A stretch of 64,000 bases of DNA, from positions 12,465 to 76,464 of the forward strand of contig NZ_JAYPMU010000016.1 in NCBI RefSeq assembly GCF_038130085.1. Direction: 5' to 3'. This DNA is from Halopseudomonas sp. (GTDB lineage: Bacteria; Pseudomonadota; Gammaproteobacteria; Pseudomonadales; Pseudomonadaceae). The stretch's first letter is position 1. Every line of letters begins with the position of its first letter. Shown here in pieces: positions 27,676-42,246 of the stretch. A program made the position numbers and the translations under genes. A model generated the notes under the pieces. It made no database searches. It was not told the DNA's origin and was given only the letters and a program-made list of their open reading frames with translations.

Positions 27676-28425
27676 CTAACCACCCTGCAACCAACGCTTG
27701 GTAGCCCGCTGCTTGGCAGCCATAGCGATAACCCGCCCCGGCCACACTGAGCGCCAGGTCATCGTAAACGCCCCATACAGGGTGAGTGACCGCTTGCCGT
27801 CGGCATCGATTTCGGGTTTGACCAACCCCTTATCCAGCAGCGCGTCAGACTCTTCACGCAAGAACGCGGTGATCTCGGCGAAGCCCTGCTCCGCCTGATA
27901 ATCAACTGGCTGTAAATCGCCCTTCAGACGCTGCCGCAACTGCGCATGCAACGACAGCAGCTGCTCAACGACCAGCACTTCGGGGAACTGGAAGCTCTGC
28001 TTGATGGGAAGCCGCGGATAGGCTTCAGGGCGGTTGCCATTGAGAACATTCAACCAGCGGCCATCGGCGAATTTCTGCGAAAACTCGCAGTAGGTGAGAT
28101 CCGGCTGATTAGTGGCGCTGATGCCGACGACCGTTCCCGCCAACTTCAGGTGCTCGTGCCAGTAGACGCGGAAGTAGGTGTCGGTGTGGCTGTCGTGCAA
28201 CGACGAATTGCCCACGACCACGAACCCGGCATCCATCATCTGCTCATCGAAATACGGAACACCCTCGGTGCAGCGCGTGAAAAAGTCATCATCGGAAAGG
28301 GGTTCAAACTGGACGATGGTTGGAATTTTCTGCGTCCGCCAGATGATGAAGGGGCCGACCAGGTTCATGAACAGCGGCCCAATCAACAGCAAACCGAGCA
28401 GGCCCCAAAAAGCGATTTCCAGCAT
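27676..28425 (-). CDS. Hypothetical protein with an N-terminal membrane anchor
   Basis: 249-aa ORF filling the gap, with a hydrophobic N-terminus; no family recognised. Confidence 0.7.
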   Translation of the reverse strand: MLEIAFWGLLGLLLIGPLFMNLVGPFIIWRTQKIPTIVQFEPLSDDDFFTRCTEGVPYFDEQMMDAGFVVVGNSSLHDSHTDTYFRVYWHEHLKLAGTVVGISATNQPDLTYCEFSQKFADGRWLNVLNGNRPEAYPRLPIKQSFQFPEVLVVEQLLSLHAQLRQRLKGDLQPVDYQAEQGFAEITAFLREESDALLDKGLVKPEIDADGKRSLTLYGAFTMTWRSVWPGRVIAMAAKQRATKRWLQGG

Positions 28426-28550
28426 ACAAGTCCCTATGCGCAGTGTGTTTGTCCTGCTCGGACTGTAACAAACCCAAGCGCCGCCAGTTACCCGCTACCG
28501 GCCGATCCCGTTAATGGCACATTGAAACTGCGACCTACGCCCCAAAAACA

Positions 28551-28582
28551 AAAACCCCGCACTGTTTCCAGTGCGGGGCTTT
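28551..28582. terminator. Intrinsic terminator after the ornithine decarboxylase gene
   Basis: AAAACCCCGCACTG-TTTC-CAGTGCGGGGCTTT; the U-tract is on the minus strand. Confidence 0.8.
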
Positions 28583-28631: not shown

Positions 28632-29795
28632 TCAGACGTAAATCGCTTCCAGCGGCGGGAAGCCGTTGAACTCGATAGCGCTATAGCTGGTGGTGTAGGC
28701 ACCGGTGGACAGCCAGTACAGGCGGTCGCCGATAGCCAGATTCAGCGGCAGGCCGTATTTGTAGTGCTCGTACATGATGTCGGCGCTGTCGCAGGTCGGG
28801 CCGGCGATCACGGCTTCTTCCAGCTCACCCTGCTTCTCGGTCCAGAGCGGGAACTTGATGGATTCGTCCATGGTTTCGATCAGGCCGGAGAACTTGCCCA
28901 CGTCGGTGTAGACCCAGCGCTCCAGTGCGGTGTGCGATTTACGCGAGACCAGTACCACTTCGCTGACCAGAATACCGGCGTTGGCAATCAGCGAACGGCC
29001 CGGCTCGAGGATGATTTCCGGCAGCTCGTCACCAAAGTCTTCCTGCAGGAAGCGGGTAATTTCTTCCGCGTAGGTCTGCAGCGTATTGGTCTTGGTGATG
29101 TAGTTGGCCGGGAAGCCGCCACCCATGTTGATCATCTTCAAGACGATGTTGTCCTCTTCCTTCAGACGCTCGAAGATCACCTTGACCTTGGCGATAGCGG
29201 CATCCCACGCGCCGATGTCGCGCTGCTGAGAACCCACGTGGAAGGAGATGCCGTAGGGCTCCAGGCCCAGCTCTTTGGCCAGCACCAGCAGGTCCATCGC
29301 CATGTCGGTCTGGCAACCGAACTTGCGCGACAGCGGCCAGTCAGCGGTAGTGGAACCTTCGGTCAGAATGCGGACATAGATTTTCGAGCCCGGTGCAGCC
29401 TTGGCAATGTTGCGCAGGTCGGCTTCGGAGTCAGTGGCGTACAGGCGCACGCCCTTTTCGTAGAAGGCACGAATGTGGCGCGCTTTCTTGATGGTGTTGC
29501 CGAAGCTGATCTGCTCCGGCTTGACGCCCAGCGCCAGTACCTTCTCCAGCTCATAGATGGAGGCGATGTCGAAGTTCGAGCCCTTGTCGCGTAGCAGCGA
29601 CAGCACTTCGTTGGCAGGGTTGGCTTTTACGGCGTAGTAGACCTTGGCGAACGGAAAGCCGTCGACCAGTTCGTCATAGGCACGGTCAATGGTTTTCAGG
29701 TCAACAACCAGAAAGGGGGTTTCGCGCTGGTCAGCGGCGGCCTTCAGACGGCTGAAGGTGTCACGATCGAAGTAGTCGTCAAGTTTGATGGACAT
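28632..29795 (-). CDS. speC: Type III (alanine racemase fold) PLP-dependent ornithine/lysine decarboxylase
   Basis: YYAVKANP (PLP lysine), FDIAS, KFG, SFHVGSQ, EPGRSL, GPTCDSAD, GAYT. Confidence 0.92.
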   Translation of the reverse strand: MSIKLDDYFDRDTFSRLKAAADQRETPFLVVDLKTIDRAYDELVDGFPFAKVYYAVKANPANEVLSLLRDKGSNFDIASIYELEKVLALGVKPEQISFGNTIKKARHIRAFYEKGVRLYATDSEADLRNIAKAAPGSKIYVRILTEGSTTADWPLSRKFGCQTDMAMDLLVLAKELGLEPYGISFHVGSQQRDIGAWDAAIAKVKVIFERLKEEDNIVLKMINMGGGFPANYITKTNTLQTYAEEITRFLQEDFGDELPEIILEPGRSLIANAGILVSEVVLVSRKSHTALERWVYTDVGKFSGLIETMDESIKFPLWTEKQGELEEAVIAGPTCDSADIMYEHYKYGLPLNLAIGDRLYWLSTGAYTTSYSAIEFNGFPPLEAIYV

Positions 29796-30111
29796 GGCGT
29801 CGGCTCCAAAGCATTAAGTTCGGGTGACGGACCGCGTGGGGACGAAAAGAGGATCAGATATGCAGGGCAGAGGTGCACACGCACGCCCCGCTCGATGAGC
29901 AGGAGCCTGAGGTACGCCTTCCGACGGAAGCGACTCTGAACGCTTTCAGCCAACACACAACCCGGGGGTGCGAACGTCTGATCAGTATCCCCACTTTGGT
30001 TCGCCTACTTCCCAAGGCGTGCGCCGAAAGCAATAAGTCCGCTCTGTTCCGCGGTCTTGCTGTCTCGTCGTCAGTACTTGAGCCGTATGGATCGTGCCAG
30101 CCTCAACGTTC
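29796..30111 (-). ncRNA. Candidate structured 5' leader of the ornithine decarboxylase gene
   Basis: About 315 nt between the predicted promoter and the ATG, with hairpins UUGAG(G)CUG...CGGCUCAA (30078-30106) and CGCCU-UGGGAAGU-AGGCG (30002-30019). Confidence 0.45.
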
Positions 30112-30118
30112 GGAGCGA

Positions 30119-30147
30119 ACCTTAAAACCAAGCGACCCGGCGGTCAA
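30119..30147 (-). promoter_or_regulatory. sigma70-like promoter for the decarboxylase leader
   Basis: Minus strand reads TTGACC-N17-TAAGGT. Confidence 0.6.
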
Positions 30148-30232
30148 TAGCAGGCGACCATTTATCTGGGACAACACCATTCCAGAGATTCTCCCGAGGC
30201 AAGCCTTGCACCTTCTTAATTGTTGCAAGACG

Positions 30233-30255
30233 TAATGAGAACACCTATCATTTGC
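30233..30255. promoter_or_regulatory. Fur-box-like site upstream of exbB
   Basis: TAATGAGAACACCTATCATTTGC, 12/19 matches to GATAATGATAATCATTATC, directly upstream of a TonB operon. Confidence 0.55.
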
Positions 30256-30283
30256 ACCTCAATTTTCTCTCCGGAGACCTCCA

Positions 30284-31120
30284 GTGACAGTAGAAGCCAC
30301 CACGCCAACCGCAATCGAACCCGCAGCCACCGCGCTCGGCACCGCCGTTCCTGATGCTGCTATCGACGCAGCGGCAACCAGTGCTGCTGCGGATCCCTCT
30401 CTGACTACCGCCCCCCTGGATGCCAGTCTGAACGCTGCGGTTGACAGTGTTGAGACAGCAACCACGCTGGTCGATACCCTGCGCGAATGGCTGATTGTCG
30501 GCGGCCCAGTGGTCTGGATTCTGCTGGGTATGTCGGTTATCGCACTGAGCATCCTGCTGATCAAACTGTGGCAGTTCTACCTGCCGGCGCCCGAAGGCGC
30601 CCGCGCGGTACGCCGCAGTCTGGCGCTGTGGCACCGGGGCCAGGCCGATGAGGCCATCGCCCAACTGAACACTCGCCAGACTGTGCCAGCCGTATTGCTG
30701 CTGGCGATGCGTGGCAAGCGCAGCGGCACCGACCAGGAACTGCTGCGCGAAGAGCTGGAGCGCGTTGCCAGCTTCCGCCTGAACCAGTTGAAAATGCTGC
30801 TGCGCCCGCTCGAAGTGATCGCCAACCTGGCGCCGCTGCTCGGCCTGCTGGGTACCGTTCTGGGCATGATCGTCGCGTTCCAGAACATGGAAGCGGCTGG
30901 CAGCCGCGTTGATCCGTCCGTTCTGTCCGGCGGTATCTGGCAGGCGCTGCTGACCACGGCAGTGGGTCTGGCAGTCGCCATTCCGGTGGTTGCGGTGCAC
31001 AGCTGGCTGGAGCGCCGCGTAGAACGCATCGCCGCCAGTCTGAACGATGCCGTCACCCAGGTGTTCACCCACCAGCCCAAGCCCCCGGTCAGCAGCGGAA
31101 AAGTCGCCAATGCAGCTTGA
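30284..31120 (+). CDS. exbB: MotA/TolQ/ExbB proton channel protein
   Basis: IANLAPLLGLLGTVLGMI and GIWQALLTTAVGLAVAIP. Confidence 0.92.
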   Translation: MTVEATTPTAIEPAATALGTAVPDAAIDAAATSAAADPSLTTAPLDASLNAAVDSVETATTLVDTLREWLIVGGPVVWILLGMSVIALSILLIKLWQFYLPAPEGARAVRRSLALWHRGQADEAIAQLNTRQTVPAVLLLAMRGKRSGTDQELLREELERVASFRLNQLKMLLRPLEVIANLAPLLGLLGTVLGMIVAFQNMEAAGSRVDPSVLSGGIWQALLTTAVGLAVAIPVVAVHSWLERRVERIAASLNDAVTQVFTHQPKPPVSSGKVANAA

Positions 31121-42097: not shown

Positions 42098-42147
42098 TTG
42101 CACTGAGTGTTCGCACTCCGCACTACCGCGCAACACACAATTTGCAA

Positions 42148-42246
42148 ATAGAGCGCTAGGGTTCCGGCCGCTGTAGCGGTGACTGGTCCGAGAGCACTCG
42201 ACCTTTCAGATAAAGGTTACACGGCGGGATAAAAGCCCGGGAGACG
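42148..42246 (+). ncRNA. Guanidine-I riboswitch (ykkC-yxkD subtype 1)
   Basis: GCGCTAGGGTTCCGG...GACTGGTCCGAGAGC...ACACGGCGGGATAAAAGCCCGGGAG matches the hallmark conserved segments, and it sits upstream of a urea/guanidine carboxylase operon. Confidence 0.95.

What the first reader, a model, noticed from the sequence alone, without database searches (positions are those of the whole stretch)
29796..30147. Long structured 5' leader on the ornithine decarboxylase gene: riboswitch-like candidate
Seen: a sigma70-like promoter (TTGACC-N17-TAAGGT, 30147-30119) puts the start about 315 nt upstream of the ODC ATG. The 5' half has defined hairpins (UUGAG/CUCAA with inner CUG/CGG; CGCCU-UGGGAAGU-AGGCG) and purine-rich linkers (GUACUGACGACGAGACAGCAAG; AACCAAAGUGGGGAUAC) typical of ligand-binding RNAs. 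Established: polyamine biosynthesis genes are often controlled by leaders (speF motif, spermidine-sensing SAM-I variants, SpeFL arrest peptide), but this sequence resembles none of those I can recall. Inference: a cis-regulatory RNA sensing a polyamine, ornithine or a related metabolite, either an orphan motif or a new one.
Basis: partly seen in the sequence, partly recalled or inferred. Interest (0 to 1): 0.65.

Follow-up and report, generated by a model that had tools for sequence, protein, structure and literature searches.

The report
Conserved structured leader RNA before ODC
The ornithine decarboxylase gene of this Halopseudomonas, and of every Pseudomonas-family genome examined, is preceded by an almost invariant ~140-base folded RNA that matches no catalogued RNA family and looks like an undescribed riboswitch-type sensor controlling polyamine synthesis.

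Summary
The promoter (TTGACC-N17-TAAGGT, 30147-30119) and the hairpins are at the stated coordinates.

Conservation starts at the -35 box. It travels with the ODC gene even where the upstream neighbour differs.

The functional core is a ~140-nt domain, window 30111-29972, minus strand. Its parts are:
- A closing helix P1 with compensatory changes.
- A long variable-length stem (63 different sequences, 21-75 nt, all hairpins).
- The hairpin CGCCU-UGGGAAGU-AGGCG.
- Junction strands in which 78 of 109 columns are invariant across 68 distinct sequences from 19 genera.

A covariance model finds one copy upstream of ODC in 74 of 74 Pseudomonadaceae loci. It finds none in about 690 genomes of other families, including four that carry ODC orthologues.

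Rfam 15 has no match. No conserved uORF exists. No paper in the library mentions it.

The 3' ~150 nt of this window's leader is a Halopseudomonas-type inserted domain, not part of the core.

Best reading: a new cis-regulatory, riboswitch-like leader. Its ligand, and whether it switches the gene on or off, are untested. The expression platform is only partly resolved.

The parts
30142..30147 (-). -35 box, TTGACC
   Evidence: Read directly. TTGAYC or TTGNNN occurs at the same place in 73 of 73 distinct family sequences, with a 17-nt spacer in 72 of them.
30119..30124 (-). -10 box, TAAGGT (TAAAGT in most other genera). The inferred transcription start is at about 30113-30111.
   Evidence: The box ends 7-10 nt before the first G of P1 in all 73 sequences. 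The start is inferred, not mapped.
29972..30111 (-). Conserved RNA domain (candidate aptamer), from P1 to P1.
   Evidence: Model R1 scores 132-167 bits in 74 of 74 ODC-upstream loci. 78 of 109 columns outside the variable stem are invariant. There is no Rfam match.
30105..30111 (-). P1, 5' strand, GAACGUU
   Evidence: It pairs with 29972-29978. All cells are paired. Two pairs covary: UA 26 / CG 21 / UG 21, and CG 38 / UG 23 / UA 5.
29972..29978 (-). P1, 3' strand, GACGUUC
   Evidence: The U.G pairs fit only the ODC-sense strand.
30082..30101 (-). Candidate hairpin P2 (GCUG/CGGC) with the invariant loop G(A/C)ACGAUCCAU.
Evidence: It is invariant, so it cannot be tested by covariation.
30075..30085 (-). 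CGGCUCAAGUA, an invariant strand complementary to the translation initiation region.
   Evidence: Its duplex with UGCUUUGGAGCCG scores -13 to -15 kcal/mol, against about -7.5 for shuffles, in Halopseudomonas-type leaders. It pairs with 29814-29800 in the unconstrained minimum-energy fold. The match is weak in other genera.
30020..30073 (-). P3, with base UG-A-CGACGAG / UUCGGCG-CA, and its variable distal stem Pvar (30062-30028).
   Evidence: The base pair shows UA 66 / CG 1 / UG 1. Pvar has 63 distinct sequences of 21-75 nt, and almost all fold as a hairpin that extends P3 (mean z -2.35).
30002..30019 (-). P4 hairpin, CGCCU-UGGGAAGU-AGGCG
Evidence: The closing pair shows CG 13 / UG 51 / other 4. 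The remainder is invariant.
29985..29999 (-). CCAAAGUGGGGAUAC: candidate P5 (CCA/UGG) plus an invariant G-run.
   Evidence: It is invariant. It is complementary to C-rich or U-rich motifs in the platform. In this window the partner is CGUCCCCACG at 29835-29844, at -15.6 against -12.0 kcal/mol, p=0.03.
29961..29971 (-). C-run, GCACCCCCGGG, directly after P1.
   Evidence: A run of three or more C starts within 8 nt of the domain's end in 44 of 66 distinct leaders. In others it follows an inserted hairpin. Its role is not settled.
29828..29964 (-). Inserted domain of the Halopseudomonas type. It is closed by the long-range stem CGGGUUGUGUGUUGGC (29949-29964) / GUCCCCACGCGGUCCG (29828-29843). Inside it lie the hairpin CGCUUCCGUCGGAAGGCG (29915-29932) and a variable hairpin (29882-29912).
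   Evidence: RNAalifold on 25 species; the changes are mostly GC to GU. The domain is absent by a clean deletion in one Halopseudomonas species (L078), and absent in most other genera.
29793..29814 (-). Translation initiation region, AUGCUUUGGAGCCGACGCCAUG. The Shine-Dalgarno GGAG is at 29804-29807 and the ATG at 29793-29795.
   Evidence: It is nearly invariant in 30 Halopseudomonas species, including bases outside the Shine-Dalgarno sequence.
28632..29795 (-). Controlled gene: a 387-aa PLP-dependent lysine/ornithine decarboxylase-family enzyme (ODC). It appears monocistronic, with a terminator-like hairpin and T-run at 28542-28582.
   Evidence: Pfam Orn_Arg_deC_N, 1.1e-54. The closest solved structure is the L/ODC 5GJM, 7.8e-53. 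The terminator was read.

Best explanation
The finding is the 5' leader of the ODC mRNA. It carries a ~140-nt structured RNA domain at window 30111-29972 (minus strand).

Architecture of the domain:
- A closing helix, P1.
- A long stem, P3, with a freely variable tip.
- The hairpin P4.
- Invariant junction strands.

Distribution. The domain is conserved in front of the ODC gene throughout the family Pseudomonadaceae and nowhere else.

Most likely function. It is a cis-acting sensor of the riboswitch type. The folded domain would bind a small ligand tied to polyamine metabolism (putrescine, spermidine, ornithine or a relative). Folding of the domain would compete with alternative pairings in which invariant strands of the domain occlude the ribosome-binding region.

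Candidate alternative pairings:
- The G-run AAAGUGGGGAWAC with platform motifs.
- In Halopseudomonas, CGGCUCAAGUA with the translation initiation region.
- In a few genera, the G-run forming a terminator-like hairpin with a C-run followed by a U tract.

In these in-silico models a folded domain leaves the start site free, so the ligand would switch the gene on. The sign of the response is weakly supported.

Shown: the conservation, the strand, helices P1 and P3, the exclusive link to ODC, and the absence of a match in Rfam.

Inferred: the transcription start, ligand binding, the identity of the ligand, and the mechanism and sign of the platform.

My confidence that this is a functional structured leader RNA is about 0.9. 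The figure given below is for the small-molecule riboswitch reading.
For: (1) Conservation exceeds that of the coding sequence and starts at the promoter.

(2) nhmmer finds the core upstream of ODC in all 23 other-genus loci tested. Model R1 finds it in 74 of 74 loci from 19 genera, at 132-167 bits. Each genome scanned whole with the model has one copy.

(3) Structure:
- P1 is 100% paired, with two pairs that change on both sides.
- 96.1% of cells are paired, against 32-44% for slid controls.
- There are 27 double-change cells, against 2.7 +/- 1.6 in shuffles, with 0 of 500 shuffles as high.
- The P3 tip has 63 different sequences of 21-75 nt, almost all hairpins.
- RNAalifold returns the same helices, but on an alignment fitted to the model.

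(4) The U.G pairs fit only the sense strand.

(5) There is no conserved uORF. The AUGs inside the core are missing in Halopseudomonas, and the indels are not multiples of three.

(6) 78 of 109 columns outside the variable stem are invariant. This pattern of invariant junctions with free stem tips is typical of ligand-binding aptamers.

(7) Alternative states:
- The unconstrained fold of this leader (-117.1 kcal/mol) sequesters the start region against 30085-30075.
- The fold with the domain enforced (-105.9 kcal/mol) leaves the start region largely unpaired; two Shine-Dalgarno bases still pair, with 29948-29949.
- Complementarity between the G-run and the platform exceeds shuffles, Wilcoxon p=2.6e-4.

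(8) Rfam 15 gives nothing at E<=10.
Against: - No ligand has been tested.
- P2, most of P4 and P5 are invariant, so they have no covariation support. One sequence breaks P2.
- The partner of the Shine-Dalgarno sequence in ensemble folds differs between genera. CGGCUCAAG is the main partner in only 8 of 66 leaders.
- G-run complementarity is individually significant in only 8 of 66 leaders, and the sequences are phylogenetically related.
- No canonical intrinsic terminator lies in this window's leader.
- Near-total invariance of whole helices also fits sequence-specific recognition by a protein.
- The transcription start and the presence of the leader in the mRNA were not observed.
Confidence: 0.5

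Rival explanations
1. The element is a protein-binding leader. The invariant strands and hairpin loops would be recognition sites for an RNA-binding regulator that represses or activates ODC translation. Candidates are an Rsm/Csr-type protein recognising GGA motifs, an antizyme-like factor, or ODC itself.
For: Whole helices and loops are invariant across 19 genera, which is more than base pairing alone requires. Several GGA-containing purine motifs are present: UUGGGAAGU in the P4 loop, GUGGGGAA, and UUUGGAG at the Shine-Dalgarno sequence. This resembles multi-site Rsm targets, a comparison I draw from memory. A 2026 paper reports that spermidine binds the GGA-rich RNAs RsmY/Z in P. aeruginosa (PMC13382137).
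Against: The size, the multi-helix junction, the closing helix P1 and the variable-length stem go beyond known Rsm sites. The element is linked to a single metabolic gene in every genome. No candidate protein gene is syntenic, since the neighbours vary.
Confidence: 0.22
2. The element is a constitutive leader with no sensor function. The fold would protect the 5' end from RNases or act as a translation enhancer or standby site, without responding to a signal.
For: The RNA would start right at the base of a stable helix, as in 5' stabiliser stem-loops. U-rich tracts precede the Shine-Dalgarno sequence in many genera. No clear switch was proven.
Against: A stabiliser hairpin does not need about 78 invariant positions, invariant junctions or a 140-nt multi-helix fold. 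Alternative pairings with the start region are enriched.
Confidence: 0.12
3. The element senses a general physical or ionic signal rather than a specific metabolite. Candidates are Mg2+ or total polycation charge, or temperature. Alternatively, the 5' part is released as a trans-acting small RNA.
For: Polyamines and Mg2+ both stabilise RNA tertiary folds, which is established knowledge. In 18 of 66 leaders a C-run plus U tract follows the domain. That arrangement could end a short transcript.
Against: The exclusive link to ODC argues for a pathway-specific signal. Most leaders lack a terminator. No second target or copy exists in the genomes scanned.
Confidence: 0.1
4. The element is a leader-peptide or arrest-peptide device, as in SpeFL or the E. 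coli speC/yqgH leader.
For: ODC genes of enterobacteria use uORF-based leaders (the literature on SpeFL; earlier notes of this scan). ORFs of 49 and 59 codons can be drawn in this window's leader.
Against: These ORFs are broken in relatives by indels that are not multiples of three, by a 1-nt indel in CACCCC(U)CGGG, and by loss of start codons. The conservation is at the nucleotide level and has no 3-base periodicity.
Confidence: 0.03

Closest known systems
Spermidine riboswitch, a SAM-I variant (Salvail et al. 2023, PMC10853860)
   Same: It is a structured 5' leader in front of polyamine-biosynthesis genes. It is the only validated natural polyamine-sensing riboswitch class I found.
   Different: - It is a SAM-I fold found in Bacillota and acts through transcription termination as an OFF switch.
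- The present RNA has no similarity to SAM-I (Rfam scan).
- The present RNA is confined to Pseudomonadaceae.
- It has no canonical terminator in most genera, and its ligand is unknown.
odc1 motif (uORF-25-1; Brewer et al. 2021, PMC8632094) and the older speF motif of alpha-proteobacteria
   Same: It is an orphan conserved leader RNA associated with a fold-III ODC gene, suspected of controlling translation initiation.
   Different: - odc1 is a single extended hairpin with a pseudoknot.
- It has two UUG start codons 2 nt apart and an 11-codon uORF.
- It occurs in alpha-proteobacteria.
- The present RNA is a ~140-nt multi-helix domain with an ATG start and no uORF, in gamma-proteobacteria. There is no sequence or model match.
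add adenine riboswitch of Vibrio vulnificus (translational ON switch; recalled from memory)
   Same: It is a working analogy only. There, the 3' part of the aptamer pairs with the Shine-Dalgarno region in the ligand-free state, and ligand-stabilised folding frees the start site. The in-silico two-state picture here has the same logic.
   Different: The fold is unrelated (a purine three-way junction of about 70 nt) and so is the ligand. Here the switch is not demonstrated, and the pairing partners differ between genera.
SpeFL-speF leader and the E. coli speC/yqgH leader
   Same: They are leaders that put ODC genes under post-initiation control by a pathway metabolite. Ornithine is the signal for SpeFL.
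   Different: Those rely on translated uORFs and precede fold-I ODCs of enterobacteria. No conserved uORF exists here.
ldcC motif (Weinberg et al. 2017, PMC5737381)
   Same: It is an orphan motif upstream of arginine, ornithine or SAM decarboxylase genes, proposed to relate to polyamine homeostasis.
   Different: It has a different lineage and structure. It gives no match here in the Rfam scan. I did not check that the family is present in the Rfam copy used.

Membership tests
Riboswitch (generic class) | Lies in the 5' untranslated leader, on the sense strand of the regulated gene. | tested here: inconclusive
   A conserved promoter lies 7-10 nt before P1 in 73 of 73 sequences. The U.G pairs fix the strand. 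The transcription start was not mapped.
Riboswitch (generic class) | A conserved aptamer fold supported by covariation, with conserved junction nucleotides. | tested here: met
   P1 and P3/Pvar covary. 78 of 109 positions outside the variable stem are invariant. P2, P4 and P5 cannot be tested because they are invariant.
Riboswitch (generic class) | An expression platform with mutually exclusive pairings. | tested here: inconclusive
   Two exclusive states are predicted for this leader, and G-run complementarity is enriched. However, the partners are heterogeneous across genera.
Riboswitch (generic class) | Direct, specific binding of a small ligand without protein. | not testable with these tools
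   This needs in-line probing, ITC or reporter assays.
Any Rfam 15 family (including speF, SAM-I, ykkC and the Pseudomonas sRNAs) | A covariance-model match. | tested here: not met
   There is no match to the leader at E<=10 in the window. There is none at the element in three other-genus loci at E<=1. The only family over the gathering score in the window is Guanidine-I, at 42145-42245.
odc1 motif (Brewer 2021) | A single long hairpin with a pseudoknot, paired UUG start codons, a conserved 11-codon uORF, and occurrence in alpha-proteobacteria. | tested here: not met
   The anatomy here is a multi-helix junction with an ATG start and no conserved uORF.
SpeFL-type arrest-peptide leader | A conserved translated uORF whose peptide senses ornithine. 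| tested here: not met
   No ORF survives the indels and the loss of start codons among relatives.
Rsm/Csr-regulated leader | Two or more GGA motifs, one in a hairpin loop and one at the Shine-Dalgarno sequence, and binding by RsmA/E. | tested here: inconclusive
   GGA-containing motifs are present in the P4 loop, the G-run and the Shine-Dalgarno region. Binding cannot be tested here.

The most novel reading that the evidence does not exclude
This would be the first riboswitch class of Gram-negative bacteria that directly senses a polyamine-pathway metabolite (putrescine, spermidine or ornithine). It would have a fold unrelated to any known aptamer. It would be present in all Pseudomonadaceae that have this ODC, including the model species of Pseudomonas. 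It would probably act as an ON-type translational switch.
Probability: 0.35. Interest if true: 0.85.

Novelty: new variant of a known kind. Interest (0 to 1): 0.7.

Why it matters
Polyamines are essential cations, and how bacteria set their level is poorly understood outside enterobacteria. Putrescine and ornithine have no validated riboswitch. The only natural polyamine riboswitch I found is a rare SAM-I variant in Bacillota.

This is a large, near-invariant orphan RNA in front of the ODC gene of an entire, intensively studied family. It is immediately testable in standard laboratory strains.

If it binds a ligand, that would add a new aptamer fold and a new node in polyamine homeostasis. If it binds a protein instead, it would reveal an unknown post-transcriptional regulator of ODC.

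Tried and rejected
- **Rfam.** The window was scanned at the gathering threshold. The leader was scanned at E<=10, and three other-genus loci at E<=1. Nothing matched the element.
- **uORF or arrest peptide.** Rejected because of indels and loss of start codons.
- **The + strand ORF at 29873-30235, or a DNA-level site.** Rejected because of strand-specific U.G pairs and covarying stems.
- **Homologues outside the family.**
  - The blastn search of relatives found none.
  - The model search of 300 genomes of the order found none.
  - The model search of 400 genomes of the class gave two weak hits, at 30 and 22 bits. Both lie inside ORFs with no ODC gene downstream, so I treat them as chance.
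  - ODC-bearing loci of four other families gave a best score of 8 bits with filters off.
- **Pseudoknot between GAUCC of the P2 loop and UGAUC/GGAUU.** Rejected. The 3' segment is a linker that varies in length, and its changes are not compensatory.
- **A single conserved anti-Shine-Dalgarno strand.** CGGCUCAAG fits well only in Halopseudomonas-type leaders.
- **Alternative pairing of the P1 strands with the platform.** No excess over shuffles.
- **Published start sites.** The P. aeruginosa tables (Wurtzel 2012) are cut in the held copy before speC.
- **Literature.** I searched by gene names, locus tags, motif names and the element's own sequence strings. Nothing was found.

Full report
**Setting**

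The window comes from a Halopseudomonas genome close to H. aestusnigri. The organism titles were given.

The gene at 28632-29795 (minus strand) encodes a 387-aa PLP-dependent decarboxylase of the lysine/ornithine decarboxylase family. Pfam Orn_Arg_deC_N scores 1.1e-54. The closest solved structure is the Selenomonas L/ODC 5GJM, at 7.8e-53.

Upstream and divergent lies an exbB-like gene at 30284-31120, with its own promoter and a Fur-box-like repeat. The 488-bp intergenic region therefore holds two divergent control regions. The finding concerns the one that serves ODC.

**Check of the observation**

Both hairpins are there too.

A blastn search of relatives found the leader in 36 of 36 genomes of the genus. 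In five of these, only query positions 151 to about 340 (window 30150-29961) and the start of ODC matched. That was the first sign of a discrete core.

Among 30 species the 190-nt core is 90-99% identical. The first 96 nt of the ODC coding sequence are only 75-83% identical.

The alignment shows conservation starting exactly at the -35 box. The gene upstream is exbB in some species and unrelated genes in others. Two blocks of about 65 and 90 nt are invariant, and they are separated by a hairpin of variable sequence.

**The element is family-wide**

- The exact 39-nt string from block 2 occurs once in each of 41 Halopseudomonas-group species and nowhere else among the 185,579 species genomes.
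- The ODC protein is 78-84% identical across Pseudomonadaceae.
- An nhmmer profile of the Halopseudomonas leader hits the region upstream of ODC in all 23 other-genus loci tested, at E 1e-27 to 1e-79. In most of them only profile positions 2 to about 187 are covered.
- I built covariance model R1 (149 positions, 28 pairs) from 28 sequences with a hand-derived structure.
- R1 scored 132-167 bits in 74 of 74 ODC-upstream loci from 19 genera.
- R1 found exactly one copy in each family genome scanned whole.
- Outside the family there was no match in about 292 genomes of the order. Among about 397 genomes of the class there were two weak hits, at 30 and 22 bits. Both lie inside ORFs with no ODC gene downstream.
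- Four other-family genomes carry ODC orthologues of 65-80% identity but nothing like the element. The best score was 8 bits with filters off.

**Structure**

- **P1.** GAACGYY pairs with RRCGUUC and closes the domain. All cells are paired. The two distal pairs show UA 26 / CG 21 / UG 21 and CG 38 / UG 23 / UA 5. Some sequences extend P1 to 8 bp through further compensated changes.
- **P3.** Its base is UG-A-CGACGAG with (C/U)UCGGCG-A-CA. It includes one compensated U-A to C-G change in one lineage.
- **Pvar.** The tip of P3 has 63 distinct sequences of 21-75 nt built from unrelated helices, for example GGUUGCC/GGCAAUCC, CAGCAAGGUCAACC/GGUUGACCUUUUUGCU and GAUCACG/CGUGAU. Almost all fold as a hairpin that continues P3.
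- **Whole-structure statistics.** 96.1% of cells pair, against 32-44% when the 3' partners are slid. There are 27 double-change cells, against 2.7 +/- 1.6 in shuffles, with 0 of 500 shuffles as high.
- **P4.** (C/U)GCCU-UGGGAAGU-AGGCG varies only at its closing pair.
- **P2 and P5.** GCUG/CGGC and CCA/UGG are invariant, so they remain hypotheses. One sequence breaks P2.
- **Invariance.** 78 of 109 columns outside Pvar are invariant across 68 distinct sequences, and 89 are at least 95% conserved.
- **Strand.** The many U.G pairs would be C.A mismatches on the other strand. The RNA is therefore the ODC-sense strand.
- **Promoter.** TTGNNN-N17-TANNNT lies 7-10 nt before P1 in 73 of 73 distinct sequences. 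The transcript is predicted to begin at the foot of P1.

**What it is not**

- It is not a member of any Rfam 15 family.
- It is not a leader peptide. The ORFs that can be drawn are destroyed by indels, and the AUGs inside the core are absent in Halopseudomonas.
- It does not correspond to the published ODC-associated motifs odc1, speF and ldcC, or to the SAM-I-variant spermidine riboswitch.
- Searches of the paper library by gene names, locus tags, topic and the element's own sequence found no description.

**The rest of this window's leader**

In most genera only 40-70 nt separate the domain from the ATG. In Halopseudomonas the distance is 156-174 nt.

The extra part is a closed domain. CGGGUUGUGUGUUGGC (29964-29949) pairs with GUCCCCACGCGGUCCG (29843-29828) around internal hairpins. 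The changes are mostly GC to GU.

One Halopseudomonas species lacks exactly this insert (L078).

**Mechanism (inferred)**

No canonical intrinsic terminator lies in the leader.

Features recurring downstream of P1:
- A C-run (CACCCC, UCCC, CUCCAC) starts within 8 nt of the domain's end in 44 of 66 leaders. In others it follows an inserted hairpin.
- The C-run is followed by a U-rich tract in 18 of 66 leaders.
- In many genera the motif GUUUUGCCAUUUGGAG is conserved at the ribosome-binding site.

Complementarity of the G-run. The invariant segment AAAGUGGGGAWAC of the domain is complementary to several platform motifs:
- The pre-Shine-Dalgarno motif GUUUUGCCAUUU.
- CGUUUCCCGAUUU in another lineage.
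- GUCCCCAC in Halopseudomonas, at -15.6 against -12.0 kcal/mol, p=0.03.

Over 66 leaders the mean duplex energy is -11.05 kcal/mol, against -10.14 for shuffles (Wilcoxon p=2.6e-4). Only 8 leaders are individually significant, and the sequences are not independent.

Halopseudomonas-specific pairing. CGGCUCAAGUA (30085-30075) matches UGCUUUGGAGCCG at the start site, at -13 to -15 kcal/mol against about -7.5 for shuffles.

Two states for this leader:
- The unconstrained minimum-energy fold (-117.1 kcal/mol) uses the pairing above and destroys the domain.
- Enforcing the domain costs 11 kcal/mol in silico and leaves the start region largely unpaired; two Shine-Dalgarno bases then pair with 29948-29949.

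Limits of the model. Across genera, the predicted partner of the Shine-Dalgarno sequence is heterogeneous. The common denominator is that a folded domain and an occluded start region are mutually exclusive. That would make a ligand which stabilises the domain an activator. I hold this sign only weakly. Rho-dependent control, or a pseudoknot between the G-run and the C-run as part of the aptamer, remain open.

**Rivals**

- A protein-binding leader is the main rival. Invariance of whole helices, and several GGA-type purine motifs, would suit sequence-specific recognition.
- A constitutive stabiliser or enhancer is less likely, given the complexity and invariance of the fold.
- A sensor of a general ionic or physical signal is less likely, given the strict link to ODC.
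- The uORF model is excluded.

**Verdict**

This is a real, strongly supported and apparently undescribed structured leader RNA of the ODC gene of Pseudomonadaceae. It has the hallmarks of an orphan riboswitch. The ligand, the transcription start and the switch mechanism still need experiments.

**Tool note**

Noticed in passing
window 30223-30284 (+ strand): The divergent exbB-like gene (30284-31120, MotA_ExbB) has a sigma70-like promoter, TTGCAA-N17-TATCAT, at 30223-30251. This promoter overlaps a Fur-box-like inverted repeat, AATGAGAACACCTATCATT, at 30234-30252. The repeat is conserved in those Halopseudomonas species in which exbB is the neighbour. The arrangement looks like ordinary iron control of an exbB-exbD-tonB operon.
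   Followed up: partly
window 42145-42245 (+ strand): A Guanidine-I riboswitch (RF00442, 93.4 bits against a gathering score of 63) is the only Rfam family over threshold in the window. Earlier notes of this scan already cover it and the guanidine carboxylase operon.
   Followed up: no
L078 (Halopseudomonas genome G032), compared with window 29964-29828: One species of the genus lacks the ~135-nt inserted domain by a clean deletion between CACCCC and the start-proximal segment. Four more genomes (G028, G014, G035, G021) show the same short blastn pattern. They are natural 'minimal leader' variants and would be useful for experiments.
   Followed up: partly
L143, L147, L149, L151, L152 (a small-genome genus of the family, 2.2-2.8 Mb): The platform contains a second copy of both P1 strands, in a hairpin (AAACGCUC...GGCGUUCUGU) that abuts the Shine-Dalgarno sequence. 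In L143 and L147 a CACCCC-U6 tract directly follows the domain. This looks like a strand-swap or terminator-type platform, different from that of other genera.
   Followed up: partly
window 28542-28582 (minus strand): A GC-rich hairpin followed by a T-run (AAAGCCCCGCACUGGAAACAGUGCGGGGUUUUUGUUUUUGG) lies 50 nt after the ODC stop codon. The ODC gene therefore appears monocistronic.
   Followed up: no
window 27676-28425 (minus strand): A 249-aa ORF downstream of ODC has no Pfam match at E<=0.001.
   Followed up: no
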